Assembly: GCA_020057405.1 (NCBI GenBank)
Contig: JAGVFW010000001.1
Location: 1-33,305 of the forward strand
DNA length: 33,305 bases
Source: an archaeon
GTDB taxonomy: Archaea > Micrarchaeota > Micrarchaeia > Norongarragalinales > UBA97
Reading direction: 5' to 3'
This document shows, one piece after another, positions 1-24,076 of the stretch (positions are counted from its first letter, which is position 1; each line of letters starts with the position of its first letter). Made by a program: the position numbers and the translations under genes. The notes beneath the pieces were generated by a model. It was given only the letters and a program-made list of their open reading frames with translations, was not told the origin of the DNA and did no database searches.

Positions 1-65
1 AAACAGTCTCGCGCTACGTGCGCGAGGATAACGATCCCCGCCAGCGCAAGCTGGCGGCATACTAA
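1..65 (+). CDS. 3' end of a gene truncated by the window edge; ends in a PIP-box-like motif
   Basis: Frame 3 is open from the edge: TVSRYVREDNDPRQRKLAAY, stop TAA at 63-65. QRKLAAY fits Q-x-x-L-x-x-aromatic. Confidence 0.5.
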   Translation, partial: TVSRYVREDNDPRQRKLAAY

Positions 66-70
66 GAAAA

Positions 71-90
71 CTGAGGCCTTTAGGCCTCAG
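71..90. terminator. Perfect inverted repeat just after a stop codon (possible terminator or protein-binding palindrome)
   Basis: CTGAGGCCT-TT-AGGCCTCAG, 9-bp arms. Confidence 0.35.
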
Positions 91-100
91 ATATTTATAC

Positions 101-388
101 TTGAAGAAAATAAAACTCGCCGAATTGAACCGCGTCTTTTCCTCATCGCCAGAAAAAACACGGCCCATACTGCAAAAAATGCTGAAAAAAGCCGCTCCGG
201 GCGGAAAGCTCCTGCTCACTTGTGCAGGTAAGGGAAAAGACGTCGTGCTTGAAGCTCTTGAGGGCATAGGCTTTCAAAATGTCCAAGTCACTCGAGTGCC
301 AAAGGAAATGCAGTGGACCTATTGGGGCAAAAAACTCGCCAAAAAACACGAAATCTACCTAATCCGCGCCCAAAAACCGCTTGCATAA
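101..388 (+). pseudogene. C-terminal half of a class I SAM-dependent methyltransferase-like protein (fragment)
   Basis: MLKKAAPGGKLLLT, LEGIGFQNVQV and IYLIRAQK match the later strands of the Rossmann MTase fold. The SAM-binding motif I is absent, and there is an in-frame TAA upstream at 29-31. Confidence 0.55.
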
Positions 389-560
389 CGCCGTGACGAA
401 CTGCCCGGCCTTTCGGTTACGAGCCATAACAAACGCATTGCACGCTTCCGCACGGCAAACTTACTCTCCCGAGTCTCTATAGCGCAGCGGCGATATTTGC
501 GTGCGACTTACCCGACCGCGCGCAAGGCTTAAATCGGGGTTACTGCATACTAGCCTGCAC

Positions 561-896
561 GTGGACCGAATCGAGCTTGACCGGCGAAAGACGACGATGA
601 AGCGCCTGTCGGTTGGCGAACTTGCACAGCACTTGCACGAGTCGGAGCCCGACGCACGGCAACGCGCTAGGCAGATTGCCGCCGAAATGGCCGAATCGGG
701 CAACATTGACCTAGCGCAGCATAACACTGCAGTAATTAGAAACGCCATACGCGGCTTTGAGAACAACTGGAAGGAAATATTTCCCTCAAGCGGCGGCTAC
801 GGCGCCGTAATGCACGAGCTAATTCGGATGAATGCAGTAAAGAAGCTCCGCGAGCCTGACGCGCCGCAGAAAAAGAAGAAGCGCTACGAAATTTAG
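561..896 (+). CDS. Hypothetical helical protein with Lys-rich tail
   Basis: ORF 501..896. TATA-like CTTAAAT at about 528-534 suggests a start at GTG 561 (alternative ATG 597). No recognisable family. Confidence 0.55.
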   Translation: MDRIELDRRKTTMKRLSVGELAQHLHESEPDARQRARQIAAEMAESGNIDLAQHNTAVIRNAIRGFENNWKEIFPSSGGYGAVMHELIRMNAVKKLREPDAPQKKKKRYEI

Positions 897-974
897 GCGT
901 TATTCTTTCTCCGGGTTCATTTTAGTTAGGTGGCCGATGGTTTTGACTCTTGTTTTGAAAAGAAGGCTTTCAGT

Positions 975-1535
975 TTATAGTGCTTTCTTATCCAGTTGTT
1001 TTCGCAATCCTAGCGTTCCTCGGTGAATCTGGCCCTTAACCGTATCTAATTTTCTGTTTAGTGTGTTTGCTATTTCCTGTTGTGACATCCCTTCGAGATG
1101 GTGCATGACGAACGGAATCCGATAGATATCGGGCAACGACTCAATTGCCGCATGCACTCTGGCGTATCTTTCTTTTTGCAGCGCCAGCTCGAGCGGACTT
1201 TCTCCCTCATCAGGTTTGTTTTCGTCGAGTTCTTCGTACCTCCTTCTCGTTTCCTTCTTTGCAATGTCGATAGCGGCGTTGCGGGCAATTTTGAACATCC
1301 AGACTCTTACTGTAGACTGGCCGTCAAAGCTGTTGGCATGCTCAATTGCGCGCACCTTAGTTTCCTGAAGGACGTCTTCGGCGTGCTCTATCCTTCCAGT
1401 AATCTTGAGGCCTAAACGGTAAACCGGGCCGTTAATTTCCTCGAAGACCGCGTCCCAGTGTTCGGGTTTCTTAGTTTTCCTTGCTTTTAGGAACTTTTGG
1501 TCAAGCGAGGTGTGCGCAAACGTTTCCGGAATCAT
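975..1535 (-). CDS. ECF-type (group 4) RNA polymerase sigma-70 factor homologue
   Basis: Region 2: VYRLGLKITGRIEHAEDVLQET and FDGQSTVRVWMFKIARNAAID. Region 4: AIESLPDIYRIPFVMHHLEGMSQQEIANTLNRKLDTVKGQIHRG. No region 1 or 3. ATG 1535 preferred over TTG 1559 because a TATA-like box lies about 27 nt upstream. Confidence 0.93.
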   Translation of the reverse strand: MIPETFAHTSLDQKFLKARKTKKPEHWDAVFEEINGPVYRLGLKITGRIEHAEDVLQETKVRAIEHANSFDGQSTVRVWMFKIARNAAIDIAKKETRRRYEELDENKPDEGESPLELALQKERYARVHAAIESLPDIYRIPFVMHHLEGMSQQEIANTLNRKLDTVKGQIHRGTLGLRKQLDKKAL

Positions 1536-1560
1536 TTCAACCGTTCTTTCAGTCCGCAAT

Positions 1561-1600
1561 CTTAAAATAGTCTACTGCGCGCCGCAGAAACATTTTTACT
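1561..1600. promoter_or_regulatory. Divergent archaeal TATA-like boxes for the sigma gene and the methyltransferase fragment
   Basis: Minus strand CTATTTTAAG (1570-1561) is about 27 nt before ATG 1535. Plus strand GAAACATTTTTACT (1587-1600) is about 25 nt before ATG 1623. Confidence 0.5.
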
Positions 1601-1622
1601 CTCATTTCTTCTTTTCTAGTTC

Positions 1623-1799
1623 ATGCCGCGCATGATGGTGCACTTGGGAAACGCCGGTAAAGACCGGTCGGCAGAGAAGATTGCAGACTACGCGCTGCGA
1701 TTTCCGGAAATAAATTTCGTCGGCATTGACGAAAAGAGCCTGCGTTTGGACGTGCCTTAGCCTGTTTGCGCACTGCCTTGGACGCTGAAGCAGGTTTAG
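1623..1799 (+). pseudogene. N-terminal fragment of a class I SAM methyltransferase-like protein with in-frame stops (absent from the ORF track)
   Basis: Hand translation: MPRMMVHLGNAGKDRSAEKIADYALRFPEINFVGIDEKSLRLDVP*PVCALPWTLKQV*. Motif I-like VHLG and motif II-like A.RFPEINFVGID. TAG stops at 1758-1760 and 1797-1799. Confidence 0.6.
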
Positions 1800-1825
1800 G
1801 CGGTTTTCCGCCTCTCGGATTCATT

Positions 1826-2572
1826 TCAGTCAGACCCTGAAATGCTTTCGTTCTTGTCGCAGCCTTCAACATTCAGGCACCTTCCTGCAGTGTAGTTGAT
1901 TGCGATTGTCTTGTTTGCGCACTCGCTTTTGCTGCAGACTTGCGCGGTGAAGTTGGAGAGCACGTTGCCGCGCGTGTAGCAGCCGCTCGCGGAAGCAGTG
2001 ACTTTAGTCTCGCCAAAGCCGTCGTGCGTGAGCTGGACCGAGGCGGGGTTAAACGACCCGCCTAGCTTGCCGCCCCAGCTTGCAAAAAACTGCAGATGGC
2101 CGGAGTCAGGACCGTTTCGCACGTTGAGGGTCACGGTATTCGCCTCGCAAGGCGAGATGAACGCGATTTTGGGCGAACCCGAGAGCGTGAAATTCATTCC
2201 CGGCGGTATTGGCTTGCACGCCCCATCAAGGCAGCCGTTGTCGCAATCCATCTGCTCGGTTTTCGCCTCGACACCGTCGCAGTAGTACTCGAGTACGCGT
2301 TCGCCAAGGCAGGTGTCGGCAAGCGTCTTTTTACCCTCCTCGGTTACTGCCGTTACCGTGCCTGCGACAGCCGCGTTCTTGCCCCCGTCGCTGTCGGCGC
2401 AGGAGCCAATGACCGGAGTTGCCGTAGGAACGGCAGTGGTTCTGGCGGTTGGAATTGGAGTGGCTCCCTCAGATGGCCCCGGAATAGTGTCGGGAGCCGC
2501 GGTCGCCTGCGGCGCTTGTGAGACGCATCCCGCAAGCAGGAGGGCCAAGAATGCAATTGCAGCAAGTTTCAT
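1826..2572 (-). CDS. Secreted lipoprotein with P/T-rich linker, Cys-rich CxDSDGG module and Ig-like C-terminal domain
   Basis: MKLAAIAFLALLLAGC lipobox (ATG 2572). CADSDGGKN...DTC...VLEYYC...CDNGCLDGAC module is typical of DPANN surface proteins. Confidence 0.8.
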   Translation of the reverse strand: MKLAAIAFLALLLAGCVSQAPQATAAPDTIPGPSEGATPIPTARTTAVPTATPVIGSCADSDGGKNAAVAGTVTAVTEEGKKTLADTCLGERVLEYYCDGVEAKTEQMDCDNGCLDGACKPIPPGMNFTLSGSPKIAFISPCEANTVTLNVRNGPDSGHLQFFASWGGKLGGSFNPASVQLTHDGFGETKVTASASGCYTRGNVLSNFTAQVCSKSECANKTIAINYTAGRCLNVEGCDKNESISGSD

Positions 2573-2644
2573 GTGCCATTCAATTTCTGCCGCCAAAACT
2601 TAAAAAGCGGCTGTTTTAAATTTCCGAGACGAGTGCTTTGTGCG

Positions 2645-3067
2645 ATGAACTTCAAGTACTGGCAATGGGAGAGCCACGAGTACGGCGAGAAGAAGAAAGC
2701 GCCGTCAGTAAAAGAGCTAGCGTTCGTTTTGGAGAACAACGACACTCACGCCTACCGCCTTGCGCGCGTCTTGTGTATAGTGAAGAGAAAGGGCGCCGTG
2801 CAGCTAAAGGAAATGCCTGGCGACCTGCCAAAGGCAACTTGGCACCGCTATCTCGAGGGCGCCTACCGCCTTGGACTCCTCGACAAGAAGGACAACACTT
2901 ATGTGAAGATAAACCGCTTTTCAAACCCGCTCAAGAACTTCGCCGACTACTACGAGAAGTGGCTTTCGCGGGAAGACGCTGAAACCGAGGAGGAGCTGCG
3001 GCTGCTGTTCCCGAATGCGGAAAAAGGAAAGTACGCCCGCGGCGGGGCAGTTGAAGCACCCAAATAG
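2645..3067 (+). CDS. Winged helix-turn-helix protein, putative transcriptional regulator
   Basis: GAVQLKEM..DLPKATWHRYLEGAYRLGLLDKKDNTY wHTH pattern. TTTTAAA at 2614-2620 precedes ATG 2645. Confidence 0.65.
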   Translation: MNFKYWQWESHEYGEKKKAPSVKELAFVLENNDTHAYRLARVLCIVKRKGAVQLKEMPGDLPKATWHRYLEGAYRLGLLDKKDNTYVKINRFSNPLKNFADYYEKWLSREDAETEEELRLLFPNAEKGKYARGGAVEAPK

Positions 3068-3130
3068 GCTGAAAAAACAGTTCGGACTTGAGCCGGCCCC
3101 CTTTTAATTTTTTCTCCCCTAGTGATTCCT

Positions 3131-4006
3131 ATGCCCGAAGAAATGCTCGTCTTCTACGCCCGCCTGCCTGAGCAGGAAATCGCAATTGACCTCCGCAGCC
3201 CCTCGGCCCAAGAGCTGGCCGAAGCCGCTTTTACTGCCCTTGAAGCTAGCCGCCAGGCGGCGCTGGAGTACTCTCCCGTTGACTTGCAGGCAGTGCGCAA
3301 GCTTGCCGGCAGCGGCAGCCTCTCAATAGCGCAGCTGTCGGCCCAACTCTCTCAACTTAAGCAGTCGGCCCTGGAGCAATCGCTCCTGCCCCTTGTCAAG
3401 GCCGCGCCTGCCTCCGACGCGATTGCCAACCCGCTGGCCAAAACGCCCAAGGGCGAGCCAGTAGAGTTTGCCGTAAGCGCCTACCTGGGCGCCCTCTTCG
3501 ATAGGGCCATGCCCCCCGAGCCGCTTTCGTGGCAAAAGCCCGGGAAGGAAAAGCGGGAAGTGCGATTAGTCGCCAACGCCCGCGGCTGGCAGTCGGTAAA
3601 GAAAGTGGAATTTGCGGGAAGCGAGCGCAAGGAAGTGTGCGCGGCGTCCGCTACCATTTTCGAGCGCGTCAAGTCAAAGCTTCCTGACCTGCTTCTTGGC
3701 GAAAAGGCGGAAGAATTTCAATCCTTGCTCGACGCGTTTGTGGCAAAATACCCCGAGCGCAAGAGCTTCGGCAGGCTGCCGGAAATATTGTCCGCGGCAG
3801 AAAAAGAGTTTCCCAAGCTTGAGGCCATCGCAGGTGGAGACAAGCGACTTGAGTCGCGCTTGCGGAAGCTCTTCCTTTACGCGTGCTTTGCGCGGGCGGG
3901 CTTCACCCCGTATCCCAGTTCCGAAACCGTCGGACGCGTGTGGCCTGAACTCAAGATCCCGAAGCCGCGCGGCAACTTTGGCGGCAAGAAAAAGAAGAAA
4001 GCCTAA
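3131..4006 (+). CDS. Conserved archaeal hypothetical protein, DUF2666-like
   Basis: RLVANARGWQSVKK and the C-terminal PELKIPKPRG plus Lys tail resemble DUF2666 as I recall it. TATA-like CTTTTAAT at 3101-3108. Confidence 0.55.
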   Translation: MPEEMLVFYARLPEQEIAIDLRSPSAQELAEAAFTALEASRQAALEYSPVDLQAVRKLAGSGSLSIAQLSAQLSQLKQSALEQSLLPLVKAAPASDAIANPLAKTPKGEPVEFAVSAYLGALFDRAMPPEPLSWQKPGKEKREVRLVANARGWQSVKKVEFAGSERKEVCAASATIFERVKSKLPDLLLGEKAEEFQSLLDAFVAKYPERKSFGRLPEILSAAEKEFPKLEAIAGGDKRLESRLRKLFLYACFARAGFTPYPSSETVGRVWPELKIPKPRGNFGGKKKKKA

Positions 4007-4493: not shown

Positions 4494-4517
4494 GCCGTTT
4501 TTGTGCCTATTTCTTTC

Positions 4518-5720
4518 ATGCCGACCTTCTCGCACTCACGCCTGTCCACTTTTGAGAACTGCCCGCAGCAGTACAAGTTCAAGTACGTCGATAAAATCAA
4601 GATAGAGCCCTACTTTCAGACGGTCGAGGCATTCATGGGCAAGCGCGTGCACGAGACGCTTGAAAAACTCTACCGCGACGTCTCAATGGGCCGCGAAGTG
4701 AGCAAGGCCGGACTACTCCTAGACTACGCCGACGACTGGGAAGAAAAATGGACTGACGACGTCAAGATAGTCAAGTCCGGCTATACGGGCGACGACTACA
4801 AGCGCGTGGGCGCAAAATGCCTTGAAAACTACTACGACGCCAACGCCCCCTTCGATAAAGACGTCACACTCGAGCTTGAGAAAAAAGTTCTAGTACACCT
4901 CGGGGGCGACTATTCCATCAACGGCGTCATCGACAGGCTTTCGCAAAAGGGGACGACTTACCAGGTGCACGACTACAAGACAAGCAGCCACCTCCCATCC
5001 CAAGCAGAGGTTGACGCGGACCGCCAGCTCGGATTCTACCAGATTGCAGTGCACGCGCTTTGGAAGGACGCGGGTGACGTCGAGCTCGTCTGGCACTACC
5101 TGCGTTTTGGAAAAGACTTGCACTCGAAAAAAAGCCACGCCGACCTAGAGGAACTGCGCATCAAGGCAGTGGCCCTGATGAAGGAAATAGGGGAAAAGGA
5201 CGGGGACGACTTTGCGCCCAAGGTAAGTGCGCTTTGCAGCTGGTGCGAATACAAGCCAATGTGCCCCGCATGGGCGCACTTGGAAAAAACAAGCCTCCTG
5301 CCGAAAAACGAGTTCCTCAACGAGCCAGGAGTCAAGCTTGTTAACGAGTTTGCTTACGCAAAAGAAGAGCAGCACGCGGCCGAGGAAAAACTTGAGAAAA
5401 TCGAGGCCGCCATCTTAGACTACTCCAAGAAGTCGGGCGCAAGCGTCATCCGCGGCAGCGACAAGAAAATCACGGTCACGCACACTCACCACCTCTCGTT
5501 TCCCGCAAAGCAGTCCGCCGACCGAACGCGCCTTGAGGCGCTGCTAAAGGAAAAGAACTTGTGGGACGAGGCAAGCACGCTAGACTCAACCGCACTCCAA
5601 GCGCTTCTAGAAGAAAAGAAAATTTCCGCCGCGACGGCAAAGGAAATACTGGCCTTGGCAAAAGACTCTGAGCGAACTAGCGTGCGGCTCTCCAAACTCC
5701 GCGACGAAGAAACCGACTAA
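4518..5720 (+). CDS. PD-(D/E)XK nuclease of the RecB/AddB/Cas4-like type with 4-Cys Fe-S staple and C-terminal coiled domain
   Basis: FSHSRLSTFENCP, GKRVHETLE, E..GVIDRL..VHDYKT, QLGFY, CSWCEYKPMCP. TTTATAAG at about 4488-4494. Confidence 0.9.
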   Translation: MPTFSHSRLSTFENCPQQYKFKYVDKIKIEPYFQTVEAFMGKRVHETLEKLYRDVSMGREVSKAGLLLDYADDWEEKWTDDVKIVKSGYTGDDYKRVGAKCLENYYDANAPFDKDVTLELEKKVLVHLGGDYSINGVIDRLSQKGTTYQVHDYKTSSHLPSQAEVDADRQLGFYQIAVHALWKDAGDVELVWHYLRFGKDLHSKKSHADLEELRIKAVALMKEIGEKDGDDFAPKVSALCSWCEYKPMCPAWAHLEKTSLLPKNEFLNEPGVKLVNEFAYAKEEQHAAEEKLEKIEAAILDYSKKSGASVIRGSDKKITVTHTHHLSFPAKQSADRTRLEALLKEKNLWDEASTLDSTALQALLEEKKISAATAKEILALAKDSERTSVRLSKLRDEETD

Positions 5721-22196: not shown

Positions 22197-22406
22197 GGGG
22201 TCATCGTACAGCCTGGCAGTACGGCGGGCTCCAGTCAGCCTCTCCCTCACAGGAAGGGGCCGAGAAAAACTGAGCGCTCAATGCGCGTTGAAGAAGAGAT
22301 TGGAGCAATGACGGCGTTAAGCCGAATGACACTGCCAAGTGCCAAAACCGCAACAAGCGGTTTTAGGGGACACTCGCAAACGGGAGTTCAAATCTCCCTG
22401 ACCCCA
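22197..22406 (+). tRNA. trnW: tRNA-Trp(CCA) with a 137-nt intron at position 37/38 (22235-22371)
   Basis: Acceptor GGGGTCA/TGACCCC-A; D stem GTAC/GTAC; anticodon stem GCGGG/CTCGC with CT-CCA-G; T arm GGGAG-TTCAAAT-CTCCC. Splice motif: CUCC (22229-32) pairs with GGGG (22366-69), with bulges AG|U and AC|A. TATA TTTTTATT at 22163-70; T-run after the gene; CCA end not encoded. Confidence 0.93.
22250..22311 (+). ncRNA. Intron-encoded box C/D guide RNA for 2'-O-methylation of tRNA-Trp C34
   Basis: D' CTGA 22270-73, GCGC/GCGC hairpin, C' TTGAAGA 22288-94, guide TTGGAGC complementary to exon GCTCCAG, D box ATGA 22308-11. The fifth nt upstream of D pairs with C34. Confidence 0.75.
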
Positions 22407-22476
22407 CTTAATTTTTTTAGCCCACTAGAGTCGTACTTTAATACTACTTTTTTAACTATTTGAGCGAGTGATTTGT

Positions 22477-23358
22477 ATGGAACGCAGAGCAAAAACAGTC
22501 CTACTGGCTTTTGATTCCCCGAACTCGCTTTTTCCAAAATTAGAGAAACACCTAAAGCGAGGTGGGTTTGATGTGGATTTGCAAGCGATAAGCAGCGCTG
22601 AGGCAGGCGAATTGGCCAAGGGTCTCAGAGCTTTGCCTCCCCACATAAAAGAGGCTGATTTGATAGTTACTGATGGCACCCTTCACGATAAGATAAGCGC
22701 CATTGCCAAGCCACACAAAAAGCCGGTCATTAACGCGTTTTCTTTCGTACCGCTTTACCGCAGCTCTCCAGAAGGGCACGTGCAATTCGTAAAGCCAATC
22801 GTGGATAAAATTAGGGCCGGCGGAAAGACTCCGGTTGTTTTACTGGCTGAGCTCACTACTCATTCCTTCGGCTTGAAGGATGATGTGAAAGAAGATTTGC
22901 AACACGAATTTCCGCACTTGGATCTTGGAAAGCCGGGCAATCCTTACTCTGAAGCGGGACAACCTTCGCAGGACGCGTTCGCCAGATTGCTTCATAAACA
23001 TCTTAACGTTCCAGCAATTTCAAGAAAATATTTTGACTTGGACTATAGGGATGCAGACGAGAATGGCCGAAACCGCATGATTAGTTCGGAAGGCAACAAT
23101 CTGCACGATGGAATCAGACAGTTAGGCTTAGATCCCAAAAAAGTCGTGCTTCTTTCAGACCATCACGTGGTAAAGTACGGCGGAAGGCACAAGCCAACAA
23201 ACACGCTATTTGAAGGGCTTACCGTGCAACTAATCTGCGCCTGCTGTGCATATAACAAATCCGAAGCAGAAGCGTACACTGACTACGGAGTTCCCATGAA
23301 ATTGCCTTCATTTGAGGAAGATCTCGTCAAAGAAATTAAGAGAAAGCTCGCTGGCTAA
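22477..23358 (+). CDS. Hypothetical alpha/beta protein with DHH and CxCC motifs; lower GC
   Basis: Long ORF containing VVLLSDHHV and LICACCAY. AT-rich promoter-like region at 22437-22460. Confidence 0.75.
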   Translation: MERRAKTVLLAFDSPNSLFPKLEKHLKRGGFDVDLQAISSAEAGELAKGLRALPPHIKEADLIVTDGTLHDKISAIAKPHKKPVINAFSFVPLYRSSPEGHVQFVKPIVDKIRAGGKTPVVLLAELTTHSFGLKDDVKEDLQHEFPHLDLGKPGNPYSEAGQPSQDAFARLLHKHLNVPAISRKYFDLDYRDADENGRNRMISSEGNNLHDGIRQLGLDPKKVVLLSDHHVVKYGGRHKPTNTLFEGLTVQLICACCAYNKSEAEAYTDYGVPMKLPSFEEDLVKEIKRKLAG

Positions 23359-23398
23359 ACCACTTCTTATAAGATTGGGGGCCTCCCAAATCACCTCC

Positions 23399-24076
23399 AT
23401 GAACATAGTCGCAGGCGTTGACGAGGCAGGCCGCGGGCCAGTGTTAGGCCCAATGGTGCTTTGCACTTTTGCAATTGAGGCCGACCGCGAGGTCGAGCTC
23501 AAGGAAATGGGCGTTCGCGACAGCAAGCTCCTCTCGCACGAAACCAGAGTCTCGCTTGCAAAGCAACTGCGAAAGATGGGCGATTTTGTCCTTACTTCGA
23601 TTTCTGCAGTTGACTTGACGATCGCCATGCGCCGGCGCATGACGCTAAACGAGCTTGAGGCGAAGGAAATCAGCGCTTCACTCGTTGAGTTGGGTGGCCG
23701 TACAGCCATCAAGAAGGTCTTTGTCGACTCTCCAGACCCGATTGCGAAAAAGTTCGAGCTGCGCATCCGAAAGTACTGCGACCACGCTTTTGAAATAGTG
23801 TGCGAGAACAAGGCGGACTTCCGCTACCCCGTTGTCGGTGCCGCAAGCATCATCGCCAAAGTCGAGCGCGACGCGGCAGTCGACAAAATAAGAAAAGTAA
23901 TGCGGGAGAACGGCGTCACTGACGAGCTTGGCAGCGGCTATTCGCATGACGCCGTGACAATCGCTTTTCTAAAGCAGCACTCGCGTTTGCCGGCGCTCCA
24001 GGAGTTCATCCGCCACGAGTGGGAGACTGCCAAGCGGCTTAAGACCGAGCAAGTTGACTTGGGCAAGTTTATTTGA
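23399..24076 (+). CDS. rnhB: Ribonuclease HII
   Basis: GVDEAGRGPVLGPMV, VRDSK, LNELE, VDS, KAD..YPVVGAASIIAKVERD, GSGY. C-terminal PIP box QVDLGKFI. Confidence 0.97.
   Translation: MNIVAGVDEAGRGPVLGPMVLCTFAIEADREVELKEMGVRDSKLLSHETRVSLAKQLRKMGDFVLTSISAVDLTIAMRRRMTLNELEAKEISASLVELGGRTAIKKVFVDSPDPIAKKFELRIRKYCDHAFEIVCENKADFRYPVVGAASIIAKVERDAAVDKIRKVMRENGVTDELGSGYSHDAVTIAFLKQHSRLPALQEFIRHEWETAKRLKTEQVDLGKFI

What the first reader, a model, noticed from the sequence alone, without database searches (positions are those of the whole stretch)
975..1570. Intact bacterial-type ECF sigma factor in an archaeal chromosome, behind an archaeal TATA-like box
Seen: a complete sigma2+sigma4 protein on the same contig as eS6, aIF2alpha, PriS/PriL, Nop10 and an intron-containing tRNA. 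It keeps the core-binding region 2.2 (HAEDVLQE), region 2.3-2.4 (WMFKIARN..ID) and the -35 HTH. A TATTTTAAG box sits about 27 nt before the ATG, the same spacing as for native genes here. Hand-counted 60-nt lines give 40-50% GC versus about 60% in pepA. The usual hydrophobic residue in QETF is replaced by K (QETKV), and no anti-sigma gene follows it. Known: archaeal RNAP initiates with TBP/TFB and does not use sigma factors; sigma region 2.2 docks on the clamp coiled coil, which in archaea binds TFE, Spt4/5 and the TFB linker. Inference: this is a horizontally acquired, domesticated sigma. It could act as a stand-alone DNA-binding regulator, as an RNAP clamp-binding modulator, or as an effector acting on a bacterial partner's RNAP.
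Basis: partly seen in the sequence, partly recalled or inferred. Interest (0 to 1): 0.9.

Follow-up and report, generated by a model that had tools for sequence, protein, structure and literature searches.

The report
Bacterial-type sigma gene inserted in archaeon
A small archaeal genome carries an intact bacterial-style (ECF) sigma factor gene that arrived as a single-gene insert with its own archaeal-type promoter; such genes are already reported in this kind of archaeon, and what they do there is still unknown.

Summary
Window 975-1535 (minus strand) encodes an intact 186-aa ECF-type sigma-70 protein (sigma2 + sigma4, pLDDT 92). It lies on a contig with eS6, aIF5B, aIF2alpha, Nop10, PriS and Gins51. 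The genome (1.22 Mb) has a single, archaeal-type RNA polymerase large subunit.

A TATA-like box lies at -34..-26 from the ATG, where this genome's own promoters peak. K60 replaces a residue that is F/L/W/Y/M in 143 of 147 homologues.

New here: the gene, its promoter and its 3' spacer form a 705-bp, 46% GC insert (873-1577). The insert is bracketed by a perfect 13-nt direct repeat found nowhere else in the genome. The sister species lacks the gene at the syntenic site. The closest homologue anywhere is 35-42% identical.

Sigma70_r2 genes occur in 25 of 68 genomes of the order. Their presence in Woesearchaeota was published in 2021 (PMC8204110), so the phenomenon is not new.

"Domesticated" is unproven: there are no orthologues, no dN/dS estimate and no expression data. 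The tree cannot separate a bacterial from an intra-archaeal source.

Best reading: a recently inserted accessory gene from an archaeal sigma-like gene pool, probably expressed. Its mode of action is inferred only. Interest is moderate.

The parts
975..1535 (-). ECF-type (group 4) sigma-70 family CDS, 186 aa from the ATG. An alternative TTG at 1559 is unlikely because it sits 2 nt from the TATA box.
1242..1433 (-). sigma2 domain (regions 2.1-2.4), Pfam Sigma70_r2
1356..1358 (-). Codon for K60. It replaces a residue that is F/L/W/Y/M in 143 of the 147 other aligned homologues.
1017..1160 (-). sigma4 domain (-35 HTH), Pfam Sigma70_r4_2. The recognition helix reads GQIHRGT where the consensus is SRLHRAR.
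1561..1569 (-). TATA-like box TATTTTAAG at -34..-26 from the ATG. The layout is leaderless-type, with no Shine-Dalgarno seen by eye and no sigma-70-type promoter.
860..872 (+). Left copy of the perfect 13-nt direct repeat CGCGCCGCAGAAA. It lies inside the 3' end of the orphan ORF 597-896.
1578..1590 (+). Right copy of the 13-nt direct repeat, 9 nt beyond the TATA box
873..1577 (.). 705-bp insert at GC 0.464, containing the sigma CDS, its promoter and its 3' spacer. Flank GC is 0.533 on the left (1-872) and 0.506 on the right (1591-1825).
597..896 (+). Convergent orphan ORF of 99 aa. It has no homologue, a weak sub-threshold TnpV hit, and is predicted helical at low confidence.
101..388 (+). 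Orphan ORF of 95 aa. It was not found in 40 relatives or in the protein database.
1..99 (.). Contig-end 99-mer identical to the 5' end of contig C5 and, over 98 nt, to the reverse complement of the 3' end of C14 in the same genome. This marks a repeat or graph branch.
1826..2572 (-). Lipoprotein-like gene (signal peptide ending LLAGC). It is the first gene shared with the sister species and so marks the edge of conserved synteny.

Best explanation
Shown:
- Window 975-1535 (-) is a real, intact ECF-type sigma-70 family gene lying in the chromosome of a small-genome archaeon. My reading that this is a DPANN/Woesearchaeota-like organism is not a tool result.
- The gene is the core of a discrete 705-bp, low-GC insert (873-1577). 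The insert is bracketed by a perfect 13-nt direct repeat.
- The insert sits inside a roughly 1.8-kb species-specific block at the contig end.
- The insert carries its own TATA box at the distance this genome uses for leaderless genes.

Inferred:
- The gene arrived recently as a self-contained expression unit. It came from the pool of sigma-70-family genes that is patchily spread in this archaeal order and class.
- The immediate donor therefore probably already used archaeal promoters. The family itself is ultimately bacterial.
- The gene is probably transcribed by the host.

Mode of action (inference only):
- The genome has no bacterial RNA polymerase, and it does have TFB. The protein therefore cannot act as a canonical initiation factor.
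- I commit to a stand-alone, sequence-specific DNA-binding regulator. It would use the sigma4 helix-turn-helix, perhaps with sigma2, as most archaeal regulators of bacterial type do.
- My odds are about 0.85 for the shown part, about 0.55 that the gene is functional in the host, and about 0.3 for this particular mode of action. The single confidence figure of 0.55 is for the explanation as a whole, apart from the specific mode of action.
For: Identity of the gene.

It looks like an ordinary, undecayed ECF sigma:
- It departs from consensus at 11 of 45 conserved columns. The other 147 sequences average 10.8 (sd 3.4), and 74 of the 147 depart at least as often.
- Its end branch is 1.01 against a median of 1.07.

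Archaeal setting:
- Archaeal markers lie along the contig.
- The window is the whole contig C9 of a 17-contig genome that is 90.6% complete and 0.27% contaminated.
- Only one Rpb1-family gene is found. It is a fused archaeal-type Rpo1 on C11. TFB is on C15.

Against chimerism:
- The next gene, 290 nt away, is conserved in the sister species.
- The other side of the block ends in a 99-mer shared with two long contigs of the same genome.
- A 13-nt repeat cannot cause a mis-join in a k=99 assembly graph. The k value is my inference from the 99-nt overlaps.

Insert:
- The 13-mer occurs only twice in 1.22 Mb, at 860-872 and 1578-1590.
- A bracketing 13-mer arose in 3 of 20,000 Markov simulations.
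- None of 32 other sigma-like ORFs from relatives has a bracketing repeat of 11 nt or more.
- The insert has GC 0.464. The gene's GC is among the 43 lowest of 923 ORFs.

Species-specific:
- The sister species has a different 213-aa ORF next to the lipoprotein gene.
- A same-family genome has no sigma gene in the syntenic stretch.
- The two neighbouring ORFs are orphans.

Promoter: the genome-wide TATA peak at -32..-28 matches the sigma gene's box. No sigma-70-type promoter is found (0 found, 1.2 expected).

Gene pool:
- Sigma70_r2 is found in 25 of 68 genomes of the order (17 of 35 genera), including near-closed assemblies.
- It is found in 34 of 301 genomes of the phylum sample, concentrated in the own order and in family f19 (14 of 65). 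It is 0 of 152 in f12-f14.
- The own genome holds two more sigma-like ORFs, on C3 and C15.
- The phenomenon is published.

Link to archaeal copies:
- All 4 ECF-like sigma2 domains seen in the window's own family lack the hydrophobic residue at the F site. They read K, R, S and S.
- Holding the window sigma together with 4 ECF-like genes of the class gives a tree 5.9 log-likelihood units better than the free careful tree, p-AU 0.61.
Against: - No orthologue exists anywhere. The best other protein scores 1.2e-21 at 35% identity, the highest identity is 42%, and only the protein itself reaches E<=1e-30 in 1.84 billion representatives. Selection therefore cannot be measured, and an intact ORF in a recent insert says little about function.
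- There are no expression data.
- The promoter match could be chance. My rough estimate is a few per cent for random sequence, and more in AT-richer DNA.
- The 13-nt bracket was noticed after the fact, and the 110-nt limits in the simulation were set by me.
- Identity to ECF-like genes of the same class is only 22-29%. Named bacterial MAGs reach 28-35%, which favours a direct bacterial source.
- The AU result does not show a clade, and the group was named after a tree had been seen.
- One of the four "class" sequences (G215:C10) lies on a contig with no archaeal marker.
- ECF sigmas generally bind DNA poorly without core RNA polymerase (recalled, not tested), which weakens the stand-alone regulator model.
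Confidence: 0.55

Rival explanations
1. Neutral passenger. The gene is a very recent horizontal insert with no function in the archaeal host. It is still intact only because too little time has passed for decay.
For: It is a singleton with no orthologue in the sister species, the family or any database. Its GC and codon usage lie in the lowest 5-8% of genes. The perfect flanking repeats imply a young insertion. It has orphan neighbours at a contig end next to a repeat. No anti-sigma partner and no bacterial RNA polymerase are present.
Against: A host-type TATA box sits at the right distance inside the insert. Sigma-family genes persist in 25 of 68 genomes of the order, some in near-closed genomes, so the host lineage tolerates or uses them. 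The unusual non-hydrophobic residue at the F site is shared with the other ECF-like genes of the same family.
Confidence: 0.3
2. RNA polymerase modulator. The sigma2 domain docks on the clamp coiled coil of the archaeal Rpo1, which is the TFE / Spt4-5 / TFB-linker site. From there it tunes or redirects initiation. K60 would be part of a re-shaped region 2.2 surface.
For: Region 2.2 (DxxQE) and the sigma2 fold are kept. The F site, conserved in 143 of 147 bacterial-type homologues, reads K, R, S and S in all 4 ECF-like genes of this archaeal family. The Rpo1 clamp region is 74-88% identical across 28 relatives, so a fixed docking surface exists. That sigma region 2.2 contacts the beta-prime clamp helices is recalled knowledge, not a result obtained here.
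Against: There is no direct evidence. I could not read residue burial from the model, so whether position 60 faces the polymerase or the domain core was not established. The other ECF-like copies are degenerate elsewhere too, so loss of F may simply reflect relaxed constraint.
Confidence: 0.1
3. Assembly or binning artefact. The first 1.8 kb of the contig is bacterial DNA joined to an archaeal contig.
For: The gene lies about 1 kb from a contig end, in a lower-GC stretch, next to an assembly-graph branch. Reads could not be examined.
Against: The far end of the block shares its terminal 99-mer with two long contigs (70 and 111 kb) of the same genome. A host-type promoter is present and no bacterial promoter is found. 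The direct repeats mark a biological insertion. The same domain occurs deep inside large contigs of near-closed relatives, for example G011:C1 at 123 kb and 831 kb, and G020:C1 at 284 kb. The published survey excluded mis-binning for this gene family.
Confidence: 0.04
4. Effector aimed at a bacterial partner's RNA polymerase, or a component of a defence or mobile-element system.
For: The ECF fold is intact with ordinary conservation. A phage sigma family matches at 1.7e-26 (phrog_1740).
Against: I saw no signal peptide or secretion context by eye. There is no PADLOC hit, no relative in viral contigs, and phage records reach only 27-35% identity. No integrase or transposase lies nearby.
Confidence: 0.02

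Closest known systems
Bacterial ECF (group 4) sigma factors, e.g. SigE (PDB 9m9d chain F) and SigW (5wuq)
   Same: It has the two-domain sigma2 + sigma4 architecture, aligns end to end, and passes the TIGR02937 cut-off. Conserved residues A52, D54, Q57, E58, W79, I83, N86, P135, R139 and R172 are kept.
   Different: It is encoded in a genome with only an archaeal RNA polymerase. It lies behind a TATA box with a leaderless start. No adjacent anti-sigma was recognised. K stands at the conserved F site, and Q169/T174 stand where R is usual in the -35 recognition helix. It meets no subfamily or equivalog cut-off.
Sigma-70 proteins of DPANN archaea, prevalent in Woesearchaeota (fam00359; Castelle et al. 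2021, PMC8204110)
   Same: It is a sigma-70 family gene on a contig with archaeal markers, with no anti-sigma factor and an unknown mechanism. The distribution I measured in the window's order and class is similarly patchy.
   Different: Most copies I saw in relatives have long open frames of 300-790 aa. Some of these match group 1/3-type sigma models, and some are multi-domain forms. The window's gene is a compact, ordinary-looking ECF with no close relative, inside a repeat-flanked insert. I could not check whether it belongs to fam00359, because supplementary tables are closed.
Divergent ECF-like genes of the same archaeal family and order (G002:C15, G005:C51, G005:C61, G027:C3)
   Same: They have sigma2 + sigma4 of ECF size. 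They carry a non-hydrophobic residue at the region 2.2 F site (S, R, S, N against K here). A grouping with the window's gene is not rejected.
   Different: They share only 22-25% identity with the window's gene (30% over a 50-residue fragment of G005:C61) and sit on long branches of 2.5-3.7 against 1.0. None has flanking repeats. G005:C61 is interrupted by a TAG.
PhyR-type sigma-like domains (a sigma2-sigma4 fold used without RNA polymerase binding)
   Same: They are a precedent for an ECF fold working outside initiation. This is recalled knowledge. There is a weak PhyR_sigma2 hit at E 0.0028, 18.1 bits.
   Different: The hit is below the Pfam cut-off of 27 bits. There is no receiver domain. 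The window's protein keeps the DNA-binding motifs.

Membership tests
ECF (group 4) sigma-70 family | sigma2 domain (regions 2.1-2.4) | tested here: met
   Pfam Sigma70_r2, 48.7 bits against a cut-off of 24; genome scan 49.3 bits
ECF (group 4) sigma-70 family | sigma4 domain (region 4.2 HTH) | tested here: met
   Pfam Sigma70_r4_2, 48.8 bits against a cut-off of 25.7
ECF (group 4) sigma-70 family | No sigma1.1 or sigma3; compact size of about 170-220 aa with a short linker | tested here: met
   186 aa. The model shows helices 10-101, a linker 102-113 and helices 114-184. It aligns end to end with 29 ECFs.
ECF (group 4) sigma-70 family | Passes a curated family model | tested here: met
   TIGR02937 sigma70-ECF, 91.3 bits against 42.9. 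None of the subfamily or equivalog models listed (best 25 of 92 matching families) reaches its cut-off.
ECF (group 4) sigma-70 family | Cognate anti-sigma factor encoded next to it (typical, not universal) | tested here: not met
   No anti-sigma domain in the neighbours by Pfam, PHROGs or PADLOC. The downstream neighbour is a convergent orphan.
ECF (group 4) sigma-70 family | Binds bacterial core RNA polymerase and directs promoter-specific initiation | not testable with these tools
   The genome shows one Rpb1-family gene only, a fused archaeal-type Rpo1. This search also detects beta-prime in all 10 bacterial control genomes.
ECF (group 4) sigma-70 family | Own bacterial-type (often autoregulated) promoter | tested here: inconclusive
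   0 sigma-70-type promoter-like sites in 400-2700 (1.2 expected). The scan does not model ECF-type -35/-10 elements. A TATA box is present instead.
DPANN/Woesearchaeota sigma-70 proteins (Castelle et al. 2021) | Sigma-70 family gene on a contig with archaeal phylogenetic markers | tested here: met
DPANN/Woesearchaeota sigma-70 proteins (Castelle et al. 2021) | Membership of protein family fam00359, and host assigned to Woesearchaeota | not testable with these tools
   Supplementary Table 3 of PMC8204110 could not be opened.

The most novel reading that the evidence does not exclude
Sigma-like genes in this archaeal class are an archaeon-adapted, mobile regulator family. They move between genomes as promoter-bearing single-gene cassettes. 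In the window's family they have lost the conserved hydrophobic residue of region 2.2. They act on the archaeal transcription machinery itself, for example by docking on the Rpo1 clamp coiled coil in competition with TFE or Spt4/5. That would make them a bacterial initiation-factor fold working with an archaeal/eukaryotic-type polymerase.
Probability: 0.1. Interest if true: 0.85.

Novelty: new member of a known kind. Interest (0 to 1): 0.45.

Why it matters
Sigma factors define bacterial transcription initiation. Archaea initiate with TBP, TFB and TFE. Sigma genes that persist in one archaeal lineage pose an open question that was already raised in print: what does a sigma do without a bacterial polymerase?

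This copy is a useful test case for four reasons:
- It is compact and undecayed.
- It has a native-type promoter.
- Its insertion boundaries can be read to the base.
- It carries an odd residue (K60) that can be reverted in vitro.

If the protein binds archaeal RNAP or specific archaeal promoters, it would show cross-domain re-use of an initiation factor. If it does nothing, it documents how freely such genes drift into small symbiont-like genomes.

Tried and rejected
Complex prediction. I folded Rpo1 residues 1-330 (29-row alignment A3) with sigma residues 1-112 (A1). The verdict was "no answer", with run scores 0.45, 0.00 and 0.00 against a mark of 0.32, and controls were not run. This is evidence neither for nor against binding.

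Sequencing runs. None was listed for window 1-3200 and no RNA holder was listed. Read laying was therefore not used, and the read-level chimerism test was not done.

Donor search:
- The search for related loci with alignments A1 and A2 failed because no stretch was conserved enough.
- The single-protein scan of genome contigs gave 16 loci at 24-35% full-length identity (one partial match 41%). Fifteen are bacterial MAGs and one is a Nitrosocosmicus MAG on a 3.3-kb contig.
- A metagenome scan with the best hit P0007 did not recover P0007's own contig; the best match was 36%.
- So the taxonomy of the nearest unlabelled homologues remains unknown.

Phylogeny. The tree had 73 rows: the window's sigma, 5 ECF-like ORFs from the order, 16 named loci, L112, and 50 of the 53 proteins P0007-P0059. 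Three proteins over 300 aa were dropped, and L008, L029 and L033 were left out as partial or too divergent.
- The quick tree placed the window sigma among bacterial-type sequences.
- Holding it with 4 ECF-like genes of the class gave +48 lnL over the quick tree, p-AU 0.978.
- It gave +5.9 lnL over the careful tree, p-AU 0.61.
- I therefore dropped the claim that the tree shows an independent bacterial origin.

Neighbouring ORFs. The orphan ORFs have no homologues, no Atlas hit and a poor single-sequence fold. An anti-sigma role for ORF 597-896 can be neither shown nor excluded.

Mobile or defence context. There is no defence-system hit for sigma. Viral contigs hold no relative and no copy of the right junction. 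Rfam finds nothing in the window.

Methyltransferase fragments. By eye, 32-385 and 1620-1757 look like two pieces of a methyltransferase. No tool supported this, so I dropped it.

Literature. Searches for mechanism or experiments on archaeal sigma factors found only the 2021 survey and unrelated papers. I read passages of PMC8204110, PMC7289017 and PMC5413776. For the other papers I saw only the listings. I found no experimental study in that library with those four searches.
Full report
WHAT IS THERE. The window is the whole 33,305-bp contig C9 of a 17-contig, 1.22-Mb genome, 90.6% complete and 0.27% contaminated. On the minus strand, 975-1535 (ATG; an upstream TTG lies at 1559) encodes 186 aa. 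Pfam finds Sigma70_r2 and Sigma70_r4_2, both above cut-off. The protein passes NCBIfam's sigma70-ECF superfamily model at 91.3 bits against 42.9, but no subfamily or equivalog model. It aligns end to end with solved ECF sigmas, SigE 9m9d_F at 72.6 bits and SigW 5wuq. It folds confidently (pLDDT 92.1) into two helical domains with a 12-residue linker. Against 147 homologues it departs from consensus at 11 of 45 conserved columns. The others average 10.8 with sd 3.4, and 74 of 147 depart at least as often. It is therefore an ordinary, undecayed ECF. The comparison set was chosen by similarity to it, which flatters it somewhat. Three departures stand out. K60 stands where the column reads F111 L16 W10 Y3 M3 A2 V1 S1 K1. 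Q169 and T174 stand in the -35 recognition helix, where R is found in 115 and 106 of 148 sequences.

THE SETTING IS ARCHAEAL. The contig carries eS6, aIF5B, PriS, Gins51, aIF2alpha, PAC2 and RNase HII, and Nop10. The genome has one Rpb1-family gene, a fused archaeal-type Rpo1 of about 1147 aa on C11. The same search rings in all 10 bacterial controls, so a beta-prime gene would have been seen. TFB is on C15. I did not search for TBP or TFE. PriL was not confirmed. "DPANN/Woesearchaeota-like" is my reading from genome size, gene content and the literature.

PROMOTER. Across 923 crude ORFs of the genome, TATA-like hexamers start 185 times at -32..-28 from the first ATG. Elsewhere they start roughly 2-20 times per position, mostly 3-8. 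A/T content peaks at -30..-26. This is the pattern expected for leaderless mRNAs. The sigma gene has TATTTTAAG at -34..-26, with TTTTAA starting at -32, on the upstream edge of that peak. No sigma-70-type promoter is present. The TTG at 1559 lies 2 nt from the box, so the ATG is the likely start.

FOREIGN, RECENT AND DISCRETE.
- Composition. The gene's GC is 0.481 against a gene mean of 0.562, among the 43 lowest of 923 ORFs. Its GC3 is among the 60 lowest and its codon score among the 69 lowest of 923.
- Synteny. In the same-genus genome G001 the lipoprotein gene (window 1826-2572) and the next gene are conserved, but the following gene is an unrelated 213-aa ORF. In same-family G002 the syntenic stretch has no sigma gene.
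- Neighbours. ORFs 101-388 and 597-896 are orphans.
- Direct repeat. A perfect 13-nt direct repeat, CGCGCCGCAGAAA, lies at 860-872 and 1578-1590. These are its only two occurrences in the genome. Between them lie 705 bp at GC 0.464, against flanks at 0.533 and 0.506. This stretch holds exactly the sigma CDS, its 3' spacer and its TATA box.
- Chance. A 13-mer bracketing the gene within 110 nt of each end arose in 3 of 20,000 first-order Markov simulations. Any 13-nt direct repeat in 2.7 kb arose in 239 of 3,000. The bracket limits were chosen after I saw the repeat.
- Empirical control. None of 32 other sigma-like ORFs in relatives' loci has a bracketing repeat of 11 nt or more, and two have 10-mers.
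- Reading. I take this as the scar of a recent insertion: a target duplication, or integration of a circle at a short identity. I cannot say which. I noted no terminal inverted repeats among the inverted repeats listed, and no transposase or integrase is present.
- Consequence. Because the promoter is inside the insert, the unit was probably already adapted to archaeal expression before it landed here.

NOT A CHIMERA, AS FAR AS SEQUENCE CAN TELL. The first 99 nt of C9 equal the first 99 nt of C5 and, over 98 nt, the reverse complement of the end of C14. Several other contig ends in this genome pair up in the same way. This looks like a k=99 assembly-graph branch at a repeat, which is my inference. 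The sigma block is thus tied to the same genome on both sides. Reads could not be obtained, so the direct test remains undone.

HOW COMMON, AND IS IT KNOWN?
- Distribution. Sigma70_r2 is found in 25 of 68 genomes of the order, in 17 of 35 genera, and in 10 of 22 high-quality genomes. Hits include positions deep inside near-closed assemblies (G011:C1 at 123 and 831 kb; G020:C1 at 284 kb). It is found in 0 of 4 model archaea. In a phylum sample it is found in 34 of 301 genomes, concentrated in the own order and in family f19 (14 of 65). It is 0 of 152 in f12-f14.
- Own genome. G000 has two more sigma-like ORFs. One is a 361-aa ORF on C3 resembling group 1/3 sigmas (best NCBIfam match 81 bits, far below cut-off), next to a Gat-like gene (identified by eye). 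The other is a 353-aa ORF on C15 with a region-4 match, next to a histone-like ORF (identified by eye). The C3 protein also has no orthologue in its own family.
- Literature. Castelle et al. 2021 (PMC8204110, section 7 passages) already report sigma-70 genes in DPANN, "particularly prevalent in Woesearchaeota". They excluded mis-binning, found no anti-sigma factor, and left the mechanism open. Four literature searches found no experimental follow-up.

WHERE DID THIS COPY COME FROM? Unresolved.
- For a direct bacterial source: the best hits are 35-42% identical. Named relatives are bacterial MAGs (Aminicenantes, Armatimonadota and others) at 28-35%. Identity to ECF-like genes of the same class is only 22-29%, found in 4 of 400 other genomes at E<=1e-4. 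The end branch is of ordinary length.
- For an intra-archaeal source: the promoter lies inside the insert. All 4 ECF-like sigma2 domains I could align from the window's own family have a non-hydrophobic residue at the F site: K here, R in G005:C51, S in G005:C61 and S in G002:C15. G027 of another family has N. ECF-like ORFs from four other genomes of the order and class (G051, G016, G215, G062) keep F; two of these sit on very short contigs. Trees that hold the window sigma together with four ECF-like genes of the class are slightly better than the free trees: +48 lnL over the quick tree, and +5.9 lnL over the careful tree with p-AU 0.61. This does not establish a clade. One of the four (G215:C10) lies on a contig with no archaeal marker.

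HOW IT MOST LIKELY WORKS.
- Shown: an intact ECF fold, a host-type promoter, no bacterial polymerase and no recognised anti-sigma.
- Inferred: the gene is transcribed, and the protein cannot act as a canonical sigma.
- I commit, with low confidence (about 0.3), to a stand-alone DNA-binding regulator working through the sigma4 HTH. This is the simplest way for a bacterial-type HTH protein to function in an archaeon.
- The neutral-passenger reading is nearly as likely (0.3).
- Clamp binding (0.1) is the exciting alternative. It gains a hint from the lineage-specific change at the F site. I could not establish whether that residue faces the polymerase or the domain core.

VERDICT. It is a new, isolated member of a published kind. 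The insert boundaries, the internal promoter and the family-wide change at the F site are new details that make it a good experimental entry point. Interest is 0.45.

Noticed in passing
window 1-99; G000 contigs C5 (5' end) and C14 (3' end): Three contig ends of the genome share the same outward 98-99-nt sequence, which holds three GC-rich hairpins. Other contig ends pair up in the same way (C1/C2, C4/C11, C8/C12/C16). This looks like k=99 graph branches at repeats.
   Followed up: partly
G000:C3:4691-5776 (L002:1165-2250) and G000:C15 (L004:712-1773, minus strand): There are two more sigma-like ORFs in the same genome. One is a 361-aa ORF resembling RpoD/SigB/F/G types (best NCBIfam match 81 bits, far below cut-off). 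The other is a 353-aa ORF with a region-4 match, next to an archaeal histone-like ORF. The 361-aa protein has no orthologue in its own family (0 of 6 genomes).
   Followed up: partly
G000:C11:56971-60411 and 28 relatives (L083-L111): The RNA polymerase largest subunit appears as one fused open frame of about 1130-1185 aa in most genomes of the order, instead of split Rpo1N/Rpo1C. Its first 330 residues are 74-88% identical across the order.
   Followed up: no
L029 (G019:C89) and L033 (G038:C57): In two species of one genus, a sigma-like ORF sits at the same locus. The locus lies between a tRNA-Ala(GGC) gene that is identical over 73 nt (blastn) and a neighbour at 74% nucleotide identity (87% protein identity). 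The two sigma-like proteins themselves are not alignable (blastp E 0.01 over 19 residues). This is a hypervariable, tRNA-adjacent slot.
   Followed up: partly
L125:9238-10932 (G215:C10): An ECF sigma gene is followed directly by a 363-aa zf-HC2 (anti-sigma type) gene in a genome of the same class. The published survey reported no anti-sigma factors. However, the 23-kb contig carries no archaeal marker (RHS-repeat, TPR and unknown ORFs only) and may be mis-binned.
   Followed up: partly
G007:C54, G048:C56, G034:C1, G316:C19, G283:C6, G265:C1: In several relatives two Sigma70_r2 genes lie within about 1-4 kb of each other, so sigma-like genes often come in pairs or clusters.
   Followed up: no
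window 22200-23400: A second low-GC stretch (0.46-0.49) covers an ORF with no Pfam hit (22468-23358, GC 0.469). It may be another foreign segment.
   Followed up: no
window 4503-5720: This is a PD-(D/E)XK / Cas4-like nuclease (Pfam PDDEXK_1 1.2e-31, PHROG exonuclease, PADLOC Cas4) between MgtC and an unknown 535-aa ORF. The MgtC-to-PepA interval is about 1 kb shorter in the sister species, so this stretch also varies.
   Followed up: partly
window 32-385 and 1620-1757 (plus strand): By eye, these two short frames resemble the C-terminal and N-terminal parts of a SAM-dependent methyltransferase, in permuted order around the sigma block. No tool supported this.
   Followed up: partly
L058 (Nitrosocosmicus MAG, 3.3-kb contig): An ECF-like gene at 25% identity sits on a short contig assigned to a thaumarchaeal MAG. 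I did not assess whether the assignment is genuine.
   Followed up: no
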